Shown here in pieces: positions 7,426-15,233 of a DNA stretch of 15,233 bases (within the stretch, counting starts at the first letter, position 1; every line of letters starts with the position of its first letter). A program made the position numbers and the translations under genes. The notes below the pieces were generated by a model, which ran no database searches, was not told where the DNA came from, and saw only the letters and a list, made by a program, of their open reading frames with translations. The stretch is from a virus (lineage: Duplodnaviria; Heunggongvirae; Uroviricota; Caudoviricetes), in IMG/VR virus record IMGVR_UViG_2585427789_000028, positions 1 through 15,233 of that record; one strand, given 5' to 3'.

Positions 7426-7479
7426 GTTAAATCTCCAGATAGTCGCAGCACCCGTTGCGCCGCATATCTGGTCATTCTA

Positions 7480-8001
7480 TTACCTAAAAAACCACATATG
7501 GATATCACATACGACCCAGTACATAACCGGATGCCGCCACGGGAATCTTTCGGGACCACCAGGATATAAACTTTTTTCCTTGCTGTACCGGTGAAACTCC
7601 GCCATCACATCGTCAATGGTGACGCCAAGAACCATCTTGCTGTCTTTGCACCACTTGATGAATTGCCCAGGCGACGGCCAGAACGGAGATTCACTGGCGC
7701 GGGCGTGGCGCATACCAGCAGAAACTTGTTCACGGGTTCGGATCCCCCCTTCGGCAAACGCAGCAATCCACTGCTGTTTTGCAGCAACTTCCTGCTCTGG
7801 CGTCTTCAGGTTGGTTACCACTGCCGCCGGAAACAGTTGTTTCAGCTGTTTGAAAAGGGTATCAACAAGCCTCTCTGCTGACATGTTCACCACGTTGTCA
7901 TTGTTGGTGTACTGATGCTCATAACCTGACATGCGAGAAAGGGCTTCTCCGTCACGGTTTTGTATCGCGGTAAAAACGTTGTTCACAAGAAATCCTCCCA
8001 T
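7480..8001 (-). CDS. Lambda P-like replication protein (helicase loader), apparently C-terminally truncated
   Basis: Translation FPAAVVTNLK...WIAAFAEGGIRTREQVSAGMRHARASESPFWPSPGQFIKWCKDS aligns by eye with the lambda P N-terminal half (FPASLANRDQ...WVLAFRENGITTMEQVNAGMRVARRQNRPFLPSPGQFVAWCREE). The ORF ends about 80 residues short of lambda P (233 aa) just before the tailspike. Start codon uncertain. Confidence 0.65.
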   Translation of the reverse strand: MGGFLVNNVFTAIQNRDGEALSRMSGYEHQYTNNDNVVNMSAERLVDTLFKQLKQLFPAAVVTNLKTPEQEVAAKQQWIAAFAEGGIRTREQVSAGMRHARASESPFWPSPGQFIKWCKDSKMVLGVTIDDVMAEFHRYSKEKSLYPGGPERFPWRHPVMYWVVCDIHMWFFR

Positions 8002-8798
8002 GCTTCAGGGCTGTTCCAGTGCGGAACGTTGTTATCAGGTAATGTTGATTGCTTCTGTCTGCTAATCTGCAGCCGCCTTGCCAGCTTCTGCTCCCACTGT
8101 GCCTGATGGTATGCCTTACCCTCAGCCATCCAGTAAATTCTGAACTCTGCAAGTTCCTGTGCCGTTGGCAGACTGTCCAGGTAGATCCCCTGCAATGAGC
8201 TTTTCCGAAGAAAGTCATCTGATGGCCGCCATTGTTCATGCATGACAAATTTGCCTAATTGCCCTGGCCCACCAGGAGGAACAAAGTTATTCATCACGGC
8301 GTTGTTTGCGCCGGGGTCATGATGCACAGAATCCCCGTTTTTTGTCCTGCTCTCCCTCTCTTGGTTAAATGACTGGTTATATGACTGGTTCTGGATCCCG
8401 TTTTTGGGATCATTCAACATCCCGTTTTTGGGATCATTCAACATCCCGTTTTTGGGTATATTCCCGTTTTCGGTAACATTACCGTTTTCGGGTTCATTGC
8501 CCCCCTCCCGGTTGCCTTTAATGTTCCCGTTTTTGGTTATATTAAGAGAGAAAACCCGCACTCTTTTTGTCGCTCCCTTTCTCTCTCCGGTATCTGAAAT
8601 AAGCCCCATTTTCATGAGCGATATAAGCCCGGCCTGCACGGTTTTTTTATTCAGGCAAGTGTCTTTAACGAGGCGTTCTATGCTGGGGTAGCAGAGGTTA
8701 TATTCATCGGCTCTGTCAGCCATCGAGAGCAGTATGAGCTTTAATGATGAGCTACCTGGATCTGTCTCCCAGGCCCAATCTGTTGCATGTCTGCTCAT
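7983..8798 (-). CDS. O-like replication initiator protein containing internal iterons
   Basis: 271-aa ORF with GGAG SD, upstream of and overlapping the P-like gene. N-terminal HTH-like region. The central part is encoded by tandem DNA repeats (protein NGN/PKNG repeats), as in lambda O, which contains ori. Confidence 0.7.
   Translation of the reverse strand: MSRHATDWAWETDPGSSSLKLILLSMADRADEYNLCYPSIERLVKDTCLNKKTVQAGLISLMKMGLISDTGERKGATKRVRVFSLNITKNGNIKGNREGGNEPENGNVTENGNIPKNGMLNDPKNGMLNDPKNGIQNQSYNQSFNQERESRTKNGDSVHHDPGANNAVMNNFVPPGGPGQLGKFVMHEQWRPSDDFLRKSSLQGIYLDSLPTAQELAEFRIYWMAEGKAYHQAQWEQKLARRLQISRQKQSTLPDNNVPHWNSPEAWEDFL
8395..8542. repeat. Iteron array, putative phage replication origin inside the O-like gene
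   Basis: ATCCCGTTTTTGGGATCATTCAAC occurs twice exactly (8395-8418, 8419-8442), followed by degenerate copies with core CCGTTTT(T)GG through about 8542. An additional 10-bp direct repeat ATGACTGGTT lies at 8369-8378 and 8381-8390. Confidence 0.7.
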
Positions 8799-8813
8799 GA
8801 TTAATCTCCGCTA

Positions 8814-9014
8814 TCAGCTTGAGTGTTGTGGGGAGGAATTAATCATGATCTGCTTAATCTCTGCCCTGATGCGACGGTTTGATTCCATGGTGCACTCAAC
8901 ACAGTGTCCGTTGTAAACCCAGCGTTCACTGTCATGTCCATGCTTACATGGTTTTCCGGTGTAGTAGCGTTTAAGTCCGCGCTTTGCGGCATCAATACGT
9001 GTAATGATTTCCAT
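8814..9014 (-). CDS. Small Cys/His-rich (zinc-ribbon-like) protein between the Cro-like and O-like genes; function unknown
   Basis: ORF track gives 8814..9077. Start chosen at the internal ATG (MEIITRID...), the only one with a weak SD. Contains C-x2-H-x-H ... C-x2-C (GKPCKHGH...GHCVEC). Occupies the cII position. Confidence 0.45.
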   Translation of the reverse strand: MEIITRIDAAKRGLKRYYTGKPCKHGHDSERWVYNGHCVECTMESNRRIRAEIKQIMINSSPQHSS

Positions 9015-9117
9015 GGTAAGCCCTGTTATTAGTATTGGGATTACGGTCATTTTGTGCTGACACAAAAAAAAGATCAACCATATTTGGTTTTTTATTACCT
9101 TTGAGGTACGAATAGAT

Positions 9118-9143
9118 ATGAAAAGACCGCCGGGTGGCGGTCT
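9118..9143 (-). terminator. Putative intrinsic terminator downstream of the Cro-like gene (tR1-like position)
   Basis: On the minus strand: AGACCGCC-ACCC-GGCGGTCT followed by TTTTCATAT. An 8-bp GC-rich stem with a short T-run. Confidence 0.45.
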
Positions 9144-9164
9144 ACAGAGGGTTGTGGCTGGATA

Positions 9165-9395
9165 TCATGAGTAGAAGAAGTATGCCAGTTCTGCTTTTGA
9201 GCGCAGCCATTGTCTTGTTTTACAGGCTTTAAAAAGCCCATTCATCAATACCTTACCTGGCATTTTGCGCTTACCTGTTAAGTGAGTCTGGATATAGTGA
9301 CTCGTCGTTCCGGCTTCCTGTGCGAAGGCTTCACGCTCATCCGGAGTAAGTGCAAGCCAGTGCTTTTTGAAATCGAAATGTCCGTTATCGCTCAT
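9165..9395 (-). CDS. Cro-like / YdaS-type small HTH regulator
   Basis: 76-aa ORF divergent from the repressor gene. Translation LALTPDEREAFAQEAGTTSHYIQTHLTGKRKM resembles Cro/YdaS-family HTH proteins. Confidence 0.6.
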   Translation of the reverse strand: MSDNGHFDFKKHWLALTPDEREAFAQEAGTTSHYIQTHLTGKRKMPGKVLMNGLFKACKTRQWLRSKAELAYFFYS

Positions 9396-9549
9396 AGCTA
9401 TTGCCTGATATTTATTTCAGATAATAAATATTCACCCATAAGGTAACAAAAATCAAGGATAGTTACCTATGGGGTGCATTTACCTGTTGGGTAATATTGC
9501 TTTAAATTGAATCATCTACTGATTCATATATGAGGCGATTTTCCAGAAA
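9396..9549. promoter_or_regulatory. Divergent promoter/operator region of the immunity switch with repeated TTACC-N4-GGGT(AAT) palindromes
   Basis: Sites at 9463-9475 (TTACC-TATG-GGGT) and 9480-9495 (TTACC-TGTT-GGGTAAT), plus AGGTAAC at 9441-9447, between divergent Cro-like and repressor genes. Confidence 0.55.
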
Positions 9550-10134
9550 ATGAAAAGTATCCAGGACGTCCGCAGGCAAAATCTCAACGACTTGATCGAC
9601 CGTGAATTCAATGGTGTTCAGACGCGGATGGCTGAAAAACTTGGAACTCAGGCAAATCTGGTAAACCGCTGGGCTCTTGGCAAGAAGGTTATCGGCGACC
9701 AGGTTGCACGAAAAATTGAAGCTGCCGCCAATAAACCCCGTAACTGGCTTGATATTGATCGCTCGCTTTCTCAGGAGGGTTTTCAGCCTGTCGGCCCGAG
9801 TGATATAGGTCAGCTGGCGGCTCACAACCTGGAACGCTGGATGAGCGAAAGCCGCGACCTTTCAACGCAGGGAAAACTACACCGCGCATCCGGCGTCGCC
9901 CAGGTGACAATCAGCCGCCTGTTAAACAATGAGGTCAGCGTTTCCATTTCCACCCTGGAGAATGTTGCATCCGCATTCGGGCGTCACGGCTATGAATTAC
10001 TGATTCACCCGCACGACCCTGCGACCATCAACTATGATCGCTCGCGCTACGCATTGTTACCCGAAACCGAGAAAGCAAAGATCGAAAGTTACATTGAATT
10101 TGTCATCAACCAGAACGAAAAAAACAAACAATAA
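9550..10134 (+). CDS. Prophage repressor candidate with two HTH (XRE-type) domains and no recognisable LexA/S24 peptidase domain
   Basis: 194 aa. HTH-like segments GVQTRMAEKLGTQANLVNRW and GKLHRASGVAQVTISRLLNNE. Sits in the cI position, has its own terminator, and is flanked on both sides by operator-like palindromes. Confidence 0.65.
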   Translation: MKSIQDVRRQNLNDLIDREFNGVQTRMAEKLGTQANLVNRWALGKKVIGDQVARKIEAAANKPRNWLDIDRSLSQEGFQPVGPSDIGQLAAHNLERWMSESRDLSTQGKLHRASGVAQVTISRLLNNEVSVSISTLENVASAFGRHGYELLIHPHDPATINYDRSRYALLPETEKAKIESYIEFVINQNEKNKQ

Positions 10135-10155
10135 AATCATATTTTTCAGTAAGTA

Positions 10156-10179
10156 AGCCGCCTTCTGGCGGCTTTTTTA
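10156..10179 (+). terminator. Rho-independent terminator after the repressor gene
   Basis: AGCCGCC-TTCT-GGCGGCT followed by TTTTTT. Confidence 0.65.
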
Positions 10180-10187
10180 TTGCCTAT

Positions 10188-10287
10188 TCGATTACCTAAT
10201 GGGTAATTTTTTTAACTCATATCTATTGACACCAAACCAGATACGCATAATTATTACCTCAACGGTAACAGACCGAGGTAACAAGTT
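10188..10287 (+). promoter_or_regulatory. Early (PL-like) promoter with flanking operator palindromes
   Basis: TTGACA at 10226-10231, 17-nt spacer, AATTAT at 10249-10254. Operator-like sites ATTACC-TAAT-GGGTAAT (10191-10207) and TTACC-TCAAC-GGTAAC (10255-10270), plus AGGTAAC at 10276-10282. Confidence 0.5.
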
Positions 10288-10440
10288 ATGCAGTGGAAAA
10301 TCATCAACGGTTGGTACTGCGTTACTGCATGCGGATTCATGAGCTGGAAGTTCCGCACCTTACAGGAAGGCATTAAGTGGGCTTTCGTCAGCAAAGAAGC
10401 TCGCGATGTGGCCAACGATAACGAGATATGGGAGGGCTGA
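10288..10440 (+). CDS. Small protein (50 aa), first gene of the early operon; function unknown
   Basis: ATG at 10288 with GAGGT 8 nt upstream; stop TGA at 10438-10440. Translates MQWKIINGWYCVTACGFMSWKFRTLQEGIKWAFVSKEARDVANDNEIWEG. Not in the supplied ORF track (below its length cutoff). Confidence 0.4.
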   Translation: MQWKIINGWYCVTACGFMSWKFRTLQEGIKWAFVSKEARDVANDNEIWEG

Positions 10441-10442
10441 TA

Positions 10443-10742
10443 ATGAACGTTAATCAGCAGAAAAATCTTCAAAAAATCATGCTGGCATTCGACAAGGACT
10501 ACCGCCTGTCAGAACAGCTATATGACCGACAAGTTGAACTGATTGAGAGTATCCGGCTTCATCAACTGGCATCAACTTTCGACGTTGTAACAGTTAAAGG
10601 CGTTCGCCAGGAAGTACTGGAGGCCGCTAAAGACAGCCCTGAGTTCGAAGAACTAATGGATGCCTACCGGCGCGAGGCAATGGCAATTATCGCCCGCTGG
10701 GATCTGGCTGATCAGATTGATGGGCAGAGGGACGCGGCATGA
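10443..10742 (+). CDS. Hypothetical early protein (99 aa) immediately upstream of the recombination genes
   Basis: Start chosen at the ATG with GGAGGG SD (MNVNQQKNL...). Stop overlaps the exonuclease start (ATGA). Confidence 0.55.
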   Translation: MNVNQQKNLQKIMLAFDKDYRLSEQLYDRQVELIESIRLHQLASTFDVVTVKGVRQEVLEAAKDSPEFEELMDAYRREAMAIIARWDLADQIDGQRDAA

Positions 10743-11560
10743 ATCCGGGAATTTATTTCGATATCAGCAACGAGGACTACCACGCCGGTGACGGCGTGAG
10801 TAAGTCGCAGCTAGATATGGTGGCTAAGAACCCTGCCCTTCTGAAATGGGTGAAGGCTGCTCCGGAAGACGAAGAGAAGAAGTCTGCACTGGACATGGGT
10901 ACTGCTCTGCACTGTCTGCTTCTGGAACCTGGAGAGTTTGACAAACGCTTCATCGTTTCACCGAAATTCGATCGTCGGACAAAACAAGGTAAAGCTGACG
11001 AAGAGGCATTTATTCGTGATGTAGCGGATATGGGGATTTCGGTACTTGATGCAGAGCAGTGGCGAAAACTGGAGCTGATGCGTGATAGCGCAATGGCTCA
11101 CCCGGCGGCACGCTGGATGTTGGAAGCACCTGGTTACTGCGAAGCATCAATGTACTGGAACGATGAAGATACGGGTGAGTTGTGCCGAATTCGTCCAGAC
11201 AAATGGCTGAAAGAGCACAACGTGATCGTCGACGTGAAAAAGGTTGCAGATATGGACCGTTTTGCACGCCACATCGAGGAGTTCCGCTACCACGTGCAGG
11301 ACGCAATGTACCGCGAAGGCGCAATGAGGGTTACTGGTCAGCCACATGGTTTTTTCTTTCTTGCCGTGAGCGAAAGCATTGATTGTGGTCGGTATCCGGT
11401 ACGCGTGTTCGAGCTGGATGCGCCGGATGTCGATGCCGGGCACGCTCTGTTCCGCCGGGATCTGAATACCTATCACGAATGCCGCATCAACGATGAATGG
11501 GGCGGAGTGGAAATTATTAAACGCCCTGACTGGGCACGTAAACAGGATATGTACGTATGA
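10739..11560 (+). CDS. PD-(D/E)XK-family recombination exonuclease (RecE-like nuclease domain)
   Basis: 273 aa. Contains IRPD...IVDVKK consistent with a PD-(D/E)xK active site. Translationally coupled to, and directly upstream of, the annealing-protein gene. Confidence 0.7.
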   Translation: MNPGIYFDISNEDYHAGDGVSKSQLDMVAKNPALLKWVKAAPEDEEKKSALDMGTALHCLLLEPGEFDKRFIVSPKFDRRTKQGKADEEAFIRDVADMGISVLDAEQWRKLELMRDSAMAHPAARWMLEAPGYCEASMYWNDEDTGELCRIRPDKWLKEHNVIVDVKKVADMDRFARHIEEFRYHVQDAMYREGAMRVTGQPHGFFFLAVSESIDCGRYPVRVFELDAPDVDAGHALFRRDLNTYHECRINDEWGGVEIIKRPDWARKQDMYV

Positions 11561-12438
11561 GCAATGATATCGCAATCACATCACAACCAGGCGCAACTGT
11601 AGGCACTGCTGCGGCAATCTTCAGCCCCGAGGGCATGAATCAACTGGTGCGTTTCGCGGAGTTGATGTCACAAAGCAAAGCGACTGTACCGAAACATCTT
11701 GAAGGCAAACCTGCCGATTGCCTGGCGGTGACCATGCAGGCGGCACAGTGGGGAATGAACCCTTTCGCCGTGGCGCAGAAAACGCATGTGGTAAACGGAA
11801 CGTTAGGCTACGAAGCACAGTTGGTAAACGCGGTCGTATCCTCTTCCAGCCTGCTGGCGACACGCCTGAATTATCGCTGGAGCGGTGACTGGTCGAATGT
11901 TAACGGCAAAACAGATAAATCACCGAATCTGACGGTAACTGTGTCAGCAGTTCTTAAAGGAGAAGCAGAACCACGTGAGCTTACCATCAGTATGGCGCAA
12001 GCAGGAGTGCGTAACTCTCCATTGTGGGAACAGGATCCGCGCCAGCAACTTGCCTATCTTTGCACGAAACGATGGGCTCGCCTGCACGCTCCTGATGTAC
12101 TTCTCGGTGTTTACACCCCTGACGAATTACAGGAAACGGCACCGCGCGTTGAGCGAGACATTACTCCGCAAATGACTACGGCTGCGGGAATGAACAGTCT
12201 GATCAACGCTAAATCAGTGAAAAAGCCTGATGAGCAAACGCGTAAAGCGGATAGCCGTGAGCCAGAAGAAATGCTGATGGCCTTTACCAGCGCAGCGATG
12301 AATTACAGCACTGTCTCCGAACTGGATAAGGCTTACAAATACATTGCACAAAAACTTTCAGATGATGACGAACTGCTGGCAAAAGCCACCGACGTTTACA
12401 GCGTTCGTCGGGAAGAATTAAACGAAACATCTATGTAA
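11557..12438 (+). CDS. Single-strand annealing protein of the RecT/Red-beta superfamily
   Basis: 293 aa. Segments MQAAQWGMNPFAVAQK and SPLWEQDPRQQLAYLCTKRWARL resemble lambda Bet (ANQYGLNPWTKE, GPWQSHPKRMLRHKAMIQCARL) as recalled from memory. ATGA overlap with the nuclease gene. Confidence 0.8.
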   Translation: MSNDIAITSQPGATVGTAAAIFSPEGMNQLVRFAELMSQSKATVPKHLEGKPADCLAVTMQAAQWGMNPFAVAQKTHVVNGTLGYEAQLVNAVVSSSSLLATRLNYRWSGDWSNVNGKTDKSPNLTVTVSAVLKGEAEPRELTISMAQAGVRNSPLWEQDPRQQLAYLCTKRWARLHAPDVLLGVYTPDELQETAPRVERDITPQMTTAAGMNSLINAKSVKKPDEQTRKADSREPEEMLMAFTSAAMNYSTVSELDKAYKYIAQKLSDDDELLAKATDVYSVRREELNETSM

Positions 12439-12487
12439 CCACCACCGCGGCGCCACGCGCGCCGCACTGCAACCAAGAGAGGTATTT

Positions 12488-12736
12488 ATGAAAGGTGCAT
12501 TAGGTAAGAAGGAACTCCTGGCGGTGGTGCCACTGTCATGGAGCACTATCGACCGTATGGAGCGCGCAGGGGAATTTCCTAAACGCTGGTATATCACCGA
12601 TAAACGCTGCGCATGGAACCGTGATGAAGTTGAGCGTTGGCTTGATGAACGTCAGGCAGCAAGCCCGGCAGAGTTCCAGGGTAAAAAACCTCCTGTTCAG
12701 CAACGTGTATATCGTCCTGTGAGCAACGCGGCATGA
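12488..12736 (+). CDS. AlpA-family small DNA-binding protein (excisionase or transcriptional regulator)
   Basis: 82 aa with GAGG SD. Pattern LLAVVPLSWSTIDRMERAGEFPKRWYI...W..DEVERWL matches the AlpA/phage-excisionase HTH family. Confidence 0.7.
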   Translation: MKGALGKKELLAVVPLSWSTIDRMERAGEFPKRWYITDKRCAWNRDEVERWLDERQAASPAEFQGKKPPVQQRVYRPVSNAA

Positions 12737-12849
12737 GTGTGCTGCTAAGGCACTGGAGCAAATGGTCAGGATGGTACTTATTCCTGGCCTCTGTTTCAGC
12801 ATGGCTTTATCTGCTGGCATTAATTTTCAGAGAGGGTTGGATTAAGTGA
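12733..12849 (+). CDS. Small hydrophobic peptide (38 aa, single predicted TM helix, Trp-rich), translationally coupled to the AlpA-like gene
   Basis: ATG overlaps the AlpA-like stop (ATGA). Translates MSVLLRHWSKWSGWYLFLASVSAWLYLLALIFREGWIK. Stop overlaps the GTG start of the next ORF. Not in the ORF track (below cutoff). Confidence 0.35.
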   Translation: MSVLLRHWSKWSGWYLFLASVSAWLYLLALIFREGWIK

Positions 12850-13145
12850 GAAAGTTAAGCCGACTTGAAAAATATCACATGAACAAGGTTTCAATGCGCA
12901 GCCCTTCAAAGGTTGTTGCCGTTACTCCTGCGGCGATAGAGATCGAAAAACGCGCGATTGAAAGAGAGAAAAAAGGGCAGTTCCGCATTGCCGCCCACCT
13001 TTGGCTTCAGTGTATGGATGTTGCTTCTGGTGATGTTGAACGTGCAAGGATCGCGGTTCGCAGGGACCAATGTATCACAAAAGGTAACGGCCTTCGCCGT
13101 GGCGACTATAGCGGCATAGGATGTTGTGGGGTGGTTTATGACTAA
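12846..13145 (+). CDS. Hypothetical small protein (99 aa), possibly a PerC-like regulator
   Basis: GTG start overlapping the upstream stop (alternative ATG at 12880). The segment EKKGQFRIAAHLWLQCMDVASGDVERARIAVRRDQC loosely resembles PerC/Pch-family regulators from memory; unverified. Confidence 0.45.
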   Translation: MRKLSRLEKYHMNKVSMRSPSKVVAVTPAAIEIEKRAIEREKKGQFRIAAHLWLQCMDVASGDVERARIAVRRDQCITKGNGLRRGDYSGIGCCGVVYD

Positions 13146-13788
13146 GAAATACACACTAATCTATGCAGATCCACCCTGGGCATACCGGGACAAAGCCACA
13201 GATGGTAATCGCGGTGCCGGTTTTAAATATCCGGTTATGAGTGTGCTGGATATCTGCCGCCTTCCTGTGTGGGATTTGGCCGGTGAAAACTGTCTGTTGG
13301 CCATGTGGTGGGTGCCAACACAACCACTCGAAGCACTAAAAGTTGTTGAAGCCTGGGGATTCCGTCTGATGACCATGAAGGGCTTCACGTGGATAAAATG
13401 TGGTAGTCGACAACCAGATAAACTGGTTATGGGGATGGGACACATGACTCGCGCCAACAGTGAAGATTGCCTGTTTGCGGTAAAGGGAAAACTACCTCCG
13501 CGCATTAATGCAGGTATCGTTCAGTCATTTACCGCACCGCGGCTTGAGCATTCAAGAAAACCAGATGTCGTTCGTGAAAAACTTGTGCAATTGTTAGGCG
13601 ATGTTTCTCGCATTGAACTGTTCGCCAGACAGTCGTCTCATGGCTTCGATGTTTGGGGTAATCAGTGCGAAGACCCGGCAGTGCAACTACACCCAGGATA
13701 CGCGTTGGATATTGCCGGATTAACAAATGCATTCAGCAATGCTCCGCTGTCACCAACAGACAACCAGGGGCGGGAGCGTGCAGCATGA
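13138..13788 (+). CDS. N6-adenine DNA methyltransferase, MT-A70-like, with no adjacent restriction endonuclease in the window
   Basis: DPPW motif (LIYADPPWAY) near the N-terminus, typical of adenine-N6 methyltransferases. Start ATG at 13138 overlaps the upstream stop (ATGACTAA); the ORF track's 13126 would be a GTG start. Confidence 0.8.
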   Translation: MTKKYTLIYADPPWAYRDKATDGNRGAGFKYPVMSVLDICRLPVWDLAGENCLLAMWWVPTQPLEALKVVEAWGFRLMTMKGFTWIKCGSRQPDKLVMGMGHMTRANSEDCLFAVKGKLPPRINAGIVQSFTAPRLEHSRKPDVVREKLVQLLGDVSRIELFARQSSHGFDVWGNQCEDPAVQLHPGYALDIAGLTNAFSNAPLSPTDNQGRERAA

Positions 13789-13979
13789 ACAGGGCATCAC
13801 CAGCAGATTTAAGGAAATGCCTTGAAACTGCAAACATGCTTGCACACAGCGGGATCAGGTTTGTTCCAATTCCCGCTGTCACTGATGCTGAATTTGCAAC
13901 ACTGTCAGCAATATTCACAGATAAAATTGAATCACTGGCAGCAGAAGCCGAGATGGAAGAAAATCAGCAGAACTATTAA
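13785..13979 (+). CDS. Hypothetical small protein (64 aa), translationally coupled to the methyltransferase
   Basis: ATG at 13785 overlaps the methyltransferase TGA (ATGA). Stop at 13977-13979, 3 nt from the convergent integrase stop. Confidence 0.45.
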   Translation: MNRASPADLRKCLETANMLAHSGIRFVPIPAVTDAEFATLSAIFTDKIESLAAEAEMEENQQNY

Positions 13980-13982
13980 ACG

Positions 13983-15233
13983 TTATTCCCCCGCCATCCA
14001 CTTCTCAAACTTCGACGGGGAGAACGGAATCAGATCCGTATGCTCCCCGTTAATCCAAGAATCAATCATATCGGCCCACTGCTGCAACATGTAGGCGCGC
14101 TGTCTGGCGTATTCCGCTTTGTTATATACGGCGCGCACACCTTTCTGCTCATGTGCCAGAGCCTTTTCAATCCAGTCTGAAGGATAACCAGCCTCATGCA
14201 ACAACGTACTGGCTGTACGGCGCATATCGTGTACGGTGAAGTCCTGAATATGCTCACCATCTTCATTTATTATTTTCACCGTTCTGTCGATCAGAGAGTT
14301 CAGCGCGGCATTAGATAATGGCTTCCGGAAATTGTAACGACCAGGAACCAGATATTCACTTCCACCAGCGCACATCTGCAACCCGACCAATATATCCTGA
14401 ACCTGTTTAGGCAGGTAAATAACATGCGCCCGGCTTCCCTTCATGCGGTCTGAAGGAATTGTCCATGTCCATTTTTTAAAATCTATTTCATCCCACGTTG
14501 CATTGGTGAATTCGCCCTTACGAACCATAGTGATAAGCACCAGTTTTAAAGCCATTTTCATAGTGCCCATAGCACCAATGGCATCCAACGTGCGGAAGAA
14601 CAGGCCAATTTCTTCTGGTGTCAGTGTTCGCTCTCGTGGTTTAAATATGGCGATAGACGAAGGTTTAATGTCAGCCGCAGGATTAAACAAACCATGACCA
14701 CGGTCATTGGCGTGACGGTATACGCTGCTGATGATCTCCCTGGCCTGTACTGCTGTTGCCCGACCACCGCGTTCGACAATCCGGTCACACAAATCACGAA
14801 CCATCGATGTGGTAATTTCAGCCATCATTTTGTTGCCAAGAACCGGAAGTATGTCACGGTCGATCACCGCCTGCTTCATTGCGCGGGTACTGTCAGCCAG
14901 GATGACGTGTTTCATATAACTGTCGGTATGTACCGCAAACGTCTCGGCACCACGAATTTTTTTGATACCGTCACGTTTAGCCGCAGCCGGCGACTGGCCT
15001 GCTTTAAGCAGCTTCTTTGCAGCAATCAGTTCTTCTCGCGCTTCTGCCAGGCTGATACCGTCACGCCCATACTGCCCGATTACCAGTGTTTCGCGGCGAC
15101 CGTTGATACGGTAGTCATAGCGAAACGAGACCGTGCCTGACGTAAGCACAGCTACATACAGCCCGTCACGATCGGAGACCTTGTACAGTTTGTCCTGCGG
15201 CTTGAGGTTTTTTAATTTTGTATCGGTAAGCAC
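13983..15233 (-). CDS. Tyrosine integrase, P4-like family (partial: N-terminus at or beyond the window edge)
   Basis: 416-aa ORF reaching the window end. N-terminal arm-binding-like sequence LTDTKLKNLKPQDKLYKVSDRDGLYVAVL; C-terminal catalytic region with HDMRRT...LAHE...Y typical of tyrosine recombinases. Confidence 0.9.
   Translation of the reverse strand: MLTDTKLKNLKPQDKLYKVSDRDGLYVAVLTSGTVSFRYDYRINGRRETLVIGQYGRDGISLAEAREELIAAKKLLKAGQSPAAAKRDGIKKIRGAETFAVHTDSYMKHVILADSTRAMKQAVIDRDILPVLGNKMMAEITTSMVRDLCDRIVERGGRATAVQAREIISSVYRHANDRGHGLFNPAADIKPSSIAIFKPRERTLTPEEIGLFFRTLDAIGAMGTMKMALKLVLITMVRKGEFTNATWDEIDFKKWTWTIPSDRMKGSRAHVIYLPKQVQDILVGLQMCAGGSEYLVPGRYNFRKPLSNAALNSLIDRTVKIINEDGEHIQDFTVHDMRRTASTLLHEAGYPSDWIEKALAHEQKGVRAVYNKAEYARQRAYMLQQWADMIDSWINGEHTDLIPFSPSKFEKWMAGE

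What the first reader, a model, noticed from the sequence alone, without database searches (positions are those of the whole stretch)
7426..8001. Apparently truncated lambda P-like gene marks a deletion or recombination junction
The P-like ORF shows clear by-eye similarity to the N-terminal half of lambda P but stops about 80 residues early, 55 bp before the tailspike start. This suggests loss of the P C-terminus, the nin region and Q, and implies the element cannot replicate autonomously or activate late genes in the lambda manner.
Basis: partly seen in the sequence, partly recalled or inferred. Interest (0 to 1): 0.4.

Follow-up and report, generated by a model that had tools for sequence, protein, structure and literature searches.

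The report
Truncated phage P gene, recurrent deletion hotspot
The short P-like gene is the scar of a 24.7-kb deletion that disabled a phiV10-type prophage of E. coli, and at least 18 other independent deletions in related prophages break the P gene at the same nucleotide, which is unexpected and unexplained.

Summary
On the minus strand, 7480-7986 (GTG start overlapping the O stop; an ATG at 8001 gives 173 aa) encodes 161 residues of a lambda-P-family helicase loader plus 7 foreign residues. It stops 54 bp before the tail-fibre ATG.

The window is a defective phiV10/epsilon15-like (Uetakevirus) prophage between yfgI and guaA. It is not a lambda-type element. Against the intact sister prophage of E. 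coli MLI121, which has an identical tail fibre, the junction lies at window 7500-7504 and 24,658 bp are missing. The lost DNA holds the last 100 codons of P, a nin-like accessory region, terminase, portal, capsid and internal virion genes. No Q-family gene was found in the part that was scanned. Functional relatives all carry a 261-aa P, so this is not a natural short variant. RefSeq already marks the same gene as a pseudogene in strain AST205.

The unexpected result is that at least 19 independent deletions in this prophage family share the same P-side endpoint (GAT|A, gene position 483/484). Their downstream partners vary and usually share only a TA microhomology. No such junction turned up in prophages that carry a different O/P-N-terminal module but an identical P-site sequence. 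The mechanism is unknown. I favour a replication-linked, site-specific break followed by template switching.

The parts
7480..7986 (-). P' pseudogene ORF. It has 161 codons of replication protein P, 7 foreign codons (IHMWFFR) and a stop. An alternative upstream ATG lies at 8001.
   Evidence: RefSeq annotates the equivalent stretch in AST205 (window 7504-7986) as 'replication protein P, incomplete, missing C-terminus'.
7500..7504 (.). Deletion junction. The left parent (tail-fibre upstream region) is identical to the window through 7504. The right parent (P) matches from 7500 with one mismatch, or exactly from 7503. The exact shared microhomology is TA at 7503-7504.
   Evidence: Three-way alignments with H10407 and MLI121. 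BLAST breakpoints of hundreds of genomes fall at query positions 701/704, which are window 7500/7503, and at query position 4305, which is window 7504.
7426..7504 (-). Retained 79 bp of the native region upstream of the tail-fibre gene. In the intact phage this intergenic region is 195 bp.
   Evidence: 100% identical to MLI121 L007 6495-6573.
4351..7425 (-). Tail fibre/tailspike gene (1024 aa) with a C-terminal Peptidase_S74 chaperone domain. It is intact.
   Evidence: Pfam. The protein has 0 differences from the tail fibre of the intact MLI121 prophage. AST205 and MLI121 share the RefSeq protein WP_077763239.1.
7983..8798 (-). O-like replication initiator (HTH_36 plus DnaT-like ssDNA-binding domain, 271 aa). 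It is intact and translationally coupled to P'.
8362..8498 (.). Tandem iteron-like repeats inside the O gene, taken to be the origin. The unit resembles ATGATCCCAAAAACGGGAT.
   Evidence: Copy number varies among carriers of the same deletion (O of 271, 263 or 236 aa). The origin function is inferred by analogy with lambda ori lying within O.
3268..4179 (+). Hexapeptide-repeat acyltransferase (cargo gene). Its 3' end runs into an 8-bp simple-sequence repeat.
1290..3087 (-). Lysis cassette, retained: two holins (2683-3087, 2388-2696), GH19 endolysin (1769-2398) and DUF2514 spanin-like protein (1290-1772).
   Evidence: AST205 annotation transferred by coordinate offset. Pfam families.
1163..1179 (-). 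attR core ATTGAGTGGGAATGATT, the 17-bp core reported for vB_EcoP_ZX5 at the guaA 3' end.
   Evidence: Exact match, 0.01 expected by chance. Core sequence from PMC9782041. Both cores are present in carriers L008 and L001.
9165..10134 (.). Immunity region: cro-like gene (9165-9395, minus strand) and HTH repressor-like gene (9550-10134, plus strand).
10739..12438 (+). Recombination genes: PD-(D/E)XK exonuclease (10739-11560) and RecT (11557-12438).
13983..15233 (-). Tyrosine integrase (416 aa), next to guaA, which lies just outside the window.

Best explanation
What the feature is. It is the scar of one illegitimate-recombination event in a phiV10/epsilon15-like prophage integrated at the 3' end of guaA. 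The event joined nucleotide 483/484 of the replication gene P (after codon 161) to a point 79 bp upstream of the tail-fibre gene. The two sites share only a TA dinucleotide, and about 24.7 kb between them was removed.

What remains. A 14-kb remnant still carries both att cores, the integrase, the immunity genes, RecT and an exonuclease, the O initiator with its iterons, the tail fibre, an acyltransferase and the lysis cassette.

Consequences (inferred).
- P' keeps the parts equivalent to lambda P domains I, II and half of III. [quoted passage not shown]
- With terminase, portal and capsid genes also gone, the element should neither replicate from its own origin nor make particles.
- The tail-fibre gene now sits 54 bp downstream of P' in the same orientation, with no predicted terminator between them. 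Rightward early transcription would probably read into it.

The hotspot (shown at population level). The P-side endpoint is not random. At least 19 independent deletions in this prophage family start at the same nucleotide and run rightward for 3-25 kb.

Proposed hotspot mechanism (inference, low confidence). Forks travel int -> P -> late genes. A DNA end or nascent 3' end terminating in ...GTGATA-3' would arise at this site and prime on downstream DNA through 1-6 nt of homology that begins at T483. This is template switching of the MMBIR type. The cause seems tied to the O/ori module, because prophages with the same P-site DNA but a different O/P-N-terminus show no such junctions.
For: Deletion junction.
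- Window 1025-7504 is 99.6-99.8% identical to MLI121 L007 1-6573.
- Window 7500-15233 is 98.0% identical to L007 31232-38965.
- L007 6574-31231 (24,658 bp) is absent.

Identity of the parent.
- 95-96% nucleotide identity to phiV10, vB_EcoP_ZX5 and typing phages 9/10 over the shared parts.
- Intact prophages occupy the same yfgI-guaA site in H10407 and MLI121.
- The attR core matches exactly (core from PMC9782041).

Family and extent of P'.
- Pfam PF06992 covers profile positions 1-127 of 162.
- Alignment to lambda P (8v9t) places residue 161 at lambda residue 159.
- Lambda P domain limits and the DnaB-binding role of the C-terminal lasso come from PMC12661323.
- The N-terminal part binding O and the C-terminal part binding host proteins comes from PMC4926192.

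Not a natural variant.
- 61 phage records carry at least 80% of the 261-aa P. These include phiV10, PAS61, phiv142-3 and EC.W1-9 at 98.9-99.2% identity over the full length.

Hotspot.
- Ten loci read at DNA level all break after ...GTCGTATGTGAT: window, L018, L019, L020, L028, L035, L036, L037, L038 and L158.
- Further distinct fusions diverge after residue 161 at protein level: P0005, P0006, P0008, P0011, P0062, P0064, P0065, P0069, P0079.
- All 8 mapped partner sites have T at -1, and 7 of 8 have A at +1.
- Among clusters at least 98% identical to P(1-161), no rearrangement breaks anywhere else in codons 1-161.
- In complete genomes the left half of the site occurs at 545 places and the right half at 541. 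No genome has the right half without the left.
- Hosts carry different tail fibres and cargo genes and two P alleles, so these are separate events.
- L158 carries a 195-bp templated insertion between two switches.
- For the alternative O/P-N-terminal type, the P-site DNA is identical over about 200 nt upstream. The frameshift lesion is comparably represented there, yet there are 0 junctions at the site.
Against: - Loss of function of P' is inferred from the lambda P structure, not tested. P' could retain O binding or P-P contacts through domain II and have some activity.
- Read-through transcription into the tail fibre rests only on the absence of a predicted terminator.
- For the hotspot mechanism there is no direct evidence of a nick or a barrier.
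  - No hairpin stands out (z = 0.3-0.4).
  - Synonymous sites are not unusually conserved across genera.
  - The local 6-mer TACCCG occurs 18 times in the fetched MLI121 locus (which extends slightly into host flanks), but only this copy is hot.
  - Its resemblance to an O-iteron half-site is weak, in the top 0.4% of 9-mers.
- The O-type contrast rests on counts of protein clusters, not on a genome census.
- Two events (L158/P0059 and P0066) resolve a few nucleotides later, at about position 488-490.
Confidence: 0.9

Rival explanations
1. P' is a naturally short, functional member of the P family, and the adjacency to the tail fibre is the native gene order of a compact element.
For: Many P-family proteins of 160-250 aa exist in the databases.
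Against: - Every short form inspected is either a fusion or truncation in a prophage that also lacks essential genes, or a frameshift or contig-end fragment.
- All isolated phages of the group have the 261-aa form.
- The last 7 residues of P' are read from the tail-fibre upstream region of the intact phage.
Confidence: 0.02
2. The fixed P endpoint is produced by a sequence-specific enzyme that is not part of the replication module. Candidates are a nicking or homing endonuclease of a superinfecting relative (some relatives carry a free-standing HNH gene about 2.3 kb downstream of P), a host defence nuclease, or a recombinase or transposase that uses the site as a pseudo-end with TA-preferring targets.
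For: - The endpoint is exact to the nucleotide and shows no resection on the retained side in 19 events.
- Partners show a TA preference.
- An HNH gene is present in H10407 but not in MLI121.
- Classic precedent from my own knowledge, not checked here: deletions with one end at the Rep nick site of M13 and pC194 origins.
Against: - No junctions were found in alternative-O-type prophages with identical site DNA. A trans-acting sequence-specific enzyme should cut those too.
- The site has no dyad symmetry, and no similarity to IS or Tn ends, the att core, dif, Ter or Chi was found by eye.
- No extended partner motif exists (p about 0.05-0.09).
- H10407, which carries the HNH gene, has the same site sequence, so it would not be immune to its own enzyme.
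- The templated insertion in L158 points to replicative switching rather than conservative recombination.
Confidence: 0.25
3. An insertion sequence once sat at this TA, and excision-linked deletion (IEE-type, microhomology-mediated) removed it together with variable flanking DNA.
For: IEE-promoted IS excision produces deletions anchored at an IS end and uses microhomology-mediated end joining (PMC9943667, abstract seen).
Against: - No P gene interrupted by an IS at this site was found. None of the tails reads into an IS, and the 3' half-gene ORF that was looked up belongs to a frameshift allele.
- Independent IS insertions at one nucleotide would be needed in prophages with different cargo genes and different P alleles.
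- The site (GATACC) is not a known strong IS target.
Confidence: 0.05
4. P' is retained because it is useful. For example, it could act as a dominant-negative fragment that binds O or poisons P assemblies of incoming related phages.
For: - P' keeps the region equivalent to lambda P domains I-II. Domain II builds the P-P interface, and the N-terminal part is thought to bind O.
- The identical 168-aa protein persists on at least 19 contigs while neighbouring genes vary.
- In-frame fusions appear over-represented among hotspot events, about 10 of 15 against one third expected. That count is biased by how clusters were sampled.
Against: - There is no test of expression or activity.
- Persistence is equally explained by recent common descent.
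- Selection on the protein cannot explain an endpoint fixed to one nucleotide.
Confidence: 0.1

Closest known systems
Bacteriophage lambda P (helicase loader; Pfam PF06992; PDB 6BBM, 8V9T)
   Same: Clear sequence homology. The intact orthologue aligns with lambda P over lambda residues 1-202 (E = 2.9e-31). The gene follows an O-type initiator that carries iterons, and the two genes overlap at stop and start.
   Different: - The window copy stops at the equivalent of lambda residue 159, so it lacks half of domain III and the C-terminal DnaB-binding lasso.
- The partner initiator is a DnaT-like/HTH_36 protein rather than lambda O.
- The host phage is not lambdoid in its late region.
Escherichia phage phiV10, Salmonella phage epsilon15, vB_EcoP_ZX5 (genus Uetakevirus)
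   Same: - 95-96% nucleotide identity over the retained early, tail-fibre-proximal and lysis regions.
- Same integration core at the guaA 3' end.
- Same order: int, early genes, O, P, [late genes], tail fibre, acyltransferase, lysis.
   Different: - 24.7 kb of replication-distal and morphogenesis genes are missing.
- The tail-fibre body differs from that of phiV10.
- The acyltransferase is a hexapeptide-repeat enzyme rather than the Acyl_transf_3 Oac seen in other members.
Cryptic or defective prophages of E. coli formed by internal deletion (e.g. DLP12, Rac, Qin)
   Same: An integrated remnant that keeps integrase, immunity, some cargo genes and lysis genes, and has lost the capacity to form particles.
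   Different: In this family the deletion endpoint recurs at one nucleotide in many independent remnants. To my knowledge that is not described for the classic cryptic prophages.
Illegitimate recombination anchored at a replication-origin nick site (M13, pC194; from my own knowledge), and microhomology-mediated template switching (MMBIR/FoSTeS)
   Same: One endpoint is fixed to the nucleotide, the partners vary with 1-6 nt of homology, the deletions run in one direction, and one event carries a templated insertion.
   Different: No HUH/Rep nickase or known nick site is present. The fixed site lies about 0.9 kb from the iterons, inside a coding sequence.

Membership tests
Phage_lambda_P (PF06992) helicase loaders | Significant match to the family profile | tested here: met
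   E = 1.3e-46, 158.8 bits against a cut-off of 26.
Phage_lambda_P (PF06992) helicase loaders | Complete family domain (profile positions 1-162) | tested here: not met
   Only profile positions 1-127 are covered. The intact orthologue covers 2-162.
Phage_lambda_P (PF06992) helicase loaders | C-terminal lasso/domain IV that binds the DnaB DH-LH element | tested here: not met
   P' ends at the equivalent of lambda P residue 159. Domain III spans about residues 120-192 and domain IV spans 193-233.
Phage_lambda_P (PF06992) helicase loaders | Loads DnaB at an O-bound origin | not testable with these tools
   Needs a replication or complementation assay.
phiV10/epsilon15-like temperate podoviruses (Uetakevirus) | Integration at the guaA 3' end through the 17-bp core ATTGAGTGGGAATGATT, with a P4-type integrase | tested here: met
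   attR core at 1163-1179. Both cores flank the element in L008 and L001. Integrase at 13983-15233 next to guaA.
phiV10/epsilon15-like temperate podoviruses (Uetakevirus) | High nucleotide identity and synteny with type members | tested here: met
   94.9-96.1% identity over 57-64% of the window.
phiV10/epsilon15-like temperate podoviruses (Uetakevirus) | Complete morphogenesis module (terminase, T7-like portal, GP7 capsid, gp14-like core proteins) | tested here: not met
   All of these genes lie in the 24,658-bp interval absent from the window. The element is a remnant, not a phage.
Lambdoid Q-dependent late gene control | A Q-family antiterminator gene between the replication genes and the late operon in intact relatives | tested here: not met
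   None of the 8 proteins between P and terS of MLI121 hits a Q/antiterminator Pfam family, and none is annotated in H10407. Four of the 8 have no Pfam hit, so a novel regulator is not excluded.

The most novel reading that the evidence does not exclude
Nucleotide 483/484 of P in this prophage family would be a site-specific DNA-breakage or fork-arrest point that depends on the replication module. From it, nascent or broken 3' ends ending in ...GATA switch template to downstream TA sites. This would repeatedly and unidirectionally delete the lytic genes. It would act as a built-in hotspot that converts active phiV10-type prophages into harmless remnants that still carry cargo genes.
Probability: 0.4. 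Interest if true: 0.7.

Novelty: new variant of a known kind. Interest (0 to 1): 0.45.

Why it matters
Taken alone, the window feature is routine prophage decay, and RefSeq already flags it as a pseudogene.

The population-level pattern is the interesting part. Prophage domestication is usually described as random deletion followed by selection. Here one nucleotide in an essential replication gene is the starting point of most observed inactivating deletions. The effect also appears to depend on which O/origin module the prophage carries.

If that holds, it gives a tractable natural system for three questions. How are site-specific breaks or fork arrests converted into large microhomology-mediated deletions in E. 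coli? Do phage origins fire abortively in lysogens? Why do certain remnants, which keep tail fibre, O-antigen-modifying enzyme, lysis genes and immunity, recur? It also gives a practical marker for calling defective prophages of this family.

Tried and rejected
- **Hairpin or cruciform at the site.** DNA folding of 101 nt on both strands gave z = 0.3-0.4, and no notable inverted repeat was found.
- **Chi-directed end.** The only Chi-like octamer (CCTGGTGG) lies about 55 nt upstream. That is the wrong distance for a cut 4-6 nt from Chi (read from the sequence).
- **Resemblance to known sites.** I compared the site by eye and from memory with Ter, dif, matS, a DnaA box, the att core, R388/F/ColE1 nic sites and IS/Tn termini. 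Only short matches at chance level were seen, and none was tested statistically.
- **Extended homology or motif at partner sites.** Local alignment scores of 8 partners were compared with 1,394 TA sites. The result was p = 0.05 (left flank) to 0.57, so it is not convincing.
- **The TACCCG motif.** It occurs 18 times in the fetched MLI121 locus (which extends slightly into host flanks), including a second GATACCCG 107 nt downstream in P, and only one copy is hot.
- **Pseudo-iteron for the O protein.** The site scores in the top 0.4% of 9-mers on a half-site matrix, which still leaves about 300 equal or better sites.
- **Conserved cis element.** Synonymous positions around the site vary among genera.
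- **Physical genome end (cos/pac) in P.** No phage record starts or ends there. The ZX5 paper says nothing on termini.
- **IS or intron inserted at the site.** None was found.
- **Pattern scan of viral contigs for altered junctions.** 0 hits among more than 119 contigs that carry the site.
- **Pattern scan of metagenome contigs.** 14 hits, of which 13 were chance matches of the 18-mer and 1 was a real new junction, L028.
- **YDC107_2 and the Phi05_* 'phage' records.** They looked like similar remnants, but they are partial or permuted records without this junction.
- **Literature searches for a described hotspot.** Nothing was found.

Full report
**1. What is at the coordinates**

The ORF is on the minus strand at 7480-8001 (173 aa from an ATG). 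RefSeq starts the orthologues at the GTG at 7986. That start overlaps the stop of the upstream O-like gene (7983-8798) as GTGA and gives 168 aa. The protein matches Pfam Phage_lambda_P with E = 1.3e-46, but only over profile positions 1-127 of 162. The 261-aa orthologue from E. coli H10407 covers positions 2-162. Its stop codon lies 54 bp before the ATG (7425) of a 1024-aa tail-fibre gene that carries a Peptidase_S74 chaperone domain.

**2. What the element is**

The window is not a lambda-like prophage. It runs from yfgH/yfgI to the integrase that abuts guaA. It is 99.7-99.98% identical to a region of the complete genome of E. coli AST205, where RefSeq already annotates 'replication protein P, incomplete, missing C-terminus'.

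The retained parts are 95-96% identical to phiV10, vB_EcoP_ZX5 and O157 typing phages 9/10, all of genus Uetakevirus. The 17-bp att core reported for ZX5 at the guaA 3' end (PMC9782041) is present exactly at 1163-1179. It flanks the element on both sides in other carriers. Intact prophages of the same family sit at the same site in H10407 and MLI121.

**3. The junction**

MLI121 carries an intact sister prophage whose tail-fibre protein is identical to that of the window.

| Window | MLI121 locus L007 | Identity |
|---|---|---|
| 1025-7504 | 1-6573 | 99.6-99.8% |
| 7500-15233 | 31232-38965 | 98.0% |

L007 6574-31231, 24,658 bp, is absent. The left parent is identical through 7504. The P parent matches from 7500 (GGGTA against GGATA), or exactly from 7503. 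The exact microhomology is TA.

The protein keeps P residues 1-161 and then reads 7 codons (IHMWFFR) of the tail-fibre upstream region. The missing interval holds the following:
- the last 100 codons of P;
- a DUF1064 gene and seven further small accessory genes;
- small and large terminase;
- a tRNA-Arg;
- portal, protease/scaffold, major capsid and decoration proteins;
- several large internal virion proteins.

None of the 8 proteins between P and terS hits a Q-type antiterminator family.

**4. Consequences for P**

The intact orthologue aligns with lambda P (PDB 8v9t) over lambda residues 1-202, and residue 161 corresponds to lambda residue 159. In lambda P, domain III spans about residues 120-192. 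The C-terminal lasso (193-233) is the part that binds the DnaB DH-LH element and is thought to bind first (PMC12661323). The N-terminal part is thought to bind O (PMC4926192).

P' should therefore be unable to load DnaB. This is an inference from structure, not a test. Isolated, plaque-forming relatives all have the 261-aa form at 98.9-99.2% identity.

**5. Spread of this deletion**

Only one of 5,426 complete E. coli genomes has this junction. However, the exact 168-aa product is encoded on at least 19 contigs from different assemblies and read sets. All of those that extend far enough downstream show the 1024-aa tail fibre next to it. O-repeat number, the PerC gene and the exonuclease gene vary among them. 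It is a real, inherited allele of a small clade.

**6. The unexpected part: one breakpoint, many events**

Other members of the 90% identity protein cluster of P' all diverge after the same residue...VVCD, with different tails. Two searches of the large protein collection found many more such fusions.

At DNA level, ten loci all break after ...GTCGTATGTGAT:

| Locus | Partner joined to P |
|---|---|
| window | 79 bp upstream of the tail-fibre gene |
| L018 | mid capsid gene |
| L019 | upstream of the gene before terS |
| L020 (complete genome AF56) | inside another tail-fibre gene |
| L028 | in frame into a DUF551 gene |
| L035 | upstream of Bbp16 |
| L036 | in frame into the portal gene |
| L037 | in frame into terS |
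| L038 | in frame into a tail-fibre N-terminus |
| L158 | portal fragment, then a second jump |

Protein-level cases add at least nine further distinct partners: P0005, P0006, P0008, P0011, P0062, P0064, P0065, P0069 and P0079.

The hosts differ in tail fibre, acyltransferase type and other lesions, and they carry two P alleles. These are separate events, not one lineage.

All partners that could be placed lie downstream of P, which gives deletions of about 3-25 kb. Eight partner sites could be read in intact references. All 8 have T at -1, and 7 of 8 have A at +1. The microhomology always begins at T483. It is T in one event, TA in most, TACC in one and TACCCG in one.

Three checks support a true hotspot:
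- Among clusters at least 98% identical to P(1-161), no rearrangement breaks anywhere else in the first 161 codons. The only other recurrent lesion is a frameshift near codon 138.
- In complete genomes the 151 bp left of the site occur at 545 places and the 150 bp right of it at 541. No genome has the right half alone. Two of the left-only cases were examined, and both break at 484.
- Truncated relatives from other genera are frameshifts or contig ends, not junctions at this site.

**7. Clues to the mechanism**

- L158 carries 195 bp copied from the portal gene between two switches, with 6-nt and 1-nt homologies. A templated insertion of this kind is typical of replicative template switching.
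- One portal TA site serves as the landing point in L036 and as the departure point in L158.
- The chromosomal fork on this replichore and a rightward fork from the phage origin both travel int -> O -> P -> late genes. This is inferred from gene order and from the orientation of guaBA. The exactly preserved side is therefore the origin-proximal arm.
- A natural control exists. About a quarter of these prophages carry a different O gene and a different 5' 255 nt of P. Their immunity genes are the same, and their DNA is identical for about 200 nt upstream of the site and beyond it. The frameshift lesion is comparably represented in that type, but no junction at the site was found. That argues against a free-standing sequence-specific nuclease. 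It points to the O/origin module, acting in cis or in trans.

I could not identify what marks the nucleotide. There is no hairpin, no conserved synonymous sites, no unique motif, and only a weak likeness to an iteron half-site.

My working model is a strand break or polymerase arrest after A484 that leaves a 3' end ...GATA, which then primes on downstream single-stranded DNA through TA. This is inference. Selection would explain why only rightward deletions are seen. They remove the toxic C-terminus of P and the lytic genes and leave immunity intact.

**8. Verdict**

It is wrong in frame (not lambda, no Q) and in scale (24.7 kb, including the whole morphogenesis module).

As a single locus it is ordinary and already annotated. 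The recurrent breakpoint, which appears to depend on the replication module, is new as far as I could find and deserves a proper census and a wet-lab test.

Noticed in passing
window 4043-4292 (3' end of the acyltransferase gene 3268-4179): An 8-bp simple-sequence repeat (GCACAGCA, about 32 copies with one interruption) forms the 3' end of the hexapeptide-repeat acyltransferase gene. The tract length is 243 bp here, 134 bp in AST205, 342 bp in MLI121 and 86-142 bp in other carriers. The predicted protein changes accordingly (303, 328 or 374 aa). A unit that is not a multiple of 3 suggests slipped-strand switching of the C-terminus, and so possible phase variation of surface-polysaccharide acylation.
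   Followed up: partly
P gene about codon 138 (A-run in ...GAAAAAAGT..., about window 7570-7580); proteins P0119-P0124, P0152-P0163, P0167: A second recurrent way of inactivating P is a frameshift in an A-run. It gives 197-200-aa products plus a separate 96-aa C-terminal ORF. It is seen in many genomes and in both O/P-N-terminal types.
   Followed up: partly
window 8362-8498 (inside O, 7983-8798): Iteron-like tandem repeats (periods of 12, 18 and 24 bp) vary in copy number among carriers of the same deletion, giving O proteins of 271, 263 or 236 aa.
   Followed up: no
L158 (SRR14509774 contig), junction region; MLI121 reverse-complement coordinates 21722-21918 and 29725: This is a complex rearrangement. 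P up to position 488 is joined through TACCCG to 195 bp of the portal gene, and then through 1 nt to the internal-virion-protein region. The departure point in the portal gene is the same TA that serves as the partner site in the independent deletion L036.
   Followed up: partly
L003 (H10407) 6528-9143: The otherwise intact H10407 prophage has its tail-fibre gene split by an IS66-family element (ISCro1). It also carries a free-standing HNH endonuclease gene between P and terS that MLI121 lacks.
   Followed up: no
window 7426-7479 and 9124-9143: No terminator-like site is predicted between P' and the tail-fibre gene on the minus strand. The only one on that strand in 7200-9700 lies just downstream of the cro-like gene. 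Early rightward transcription may therefore run into the tail-fibre gene in this remnant.
   Followed up: no
L009, L019, L020, L038 (other remnants): Remnants of this family carry further independent lesions: a truncated exonuclease, a RecT-region deletion, a truncated MT-A70 methylase and a second deletion from the portal gene to the tail region. This shows ongoing decay after the first deletion.
   Followed up: no
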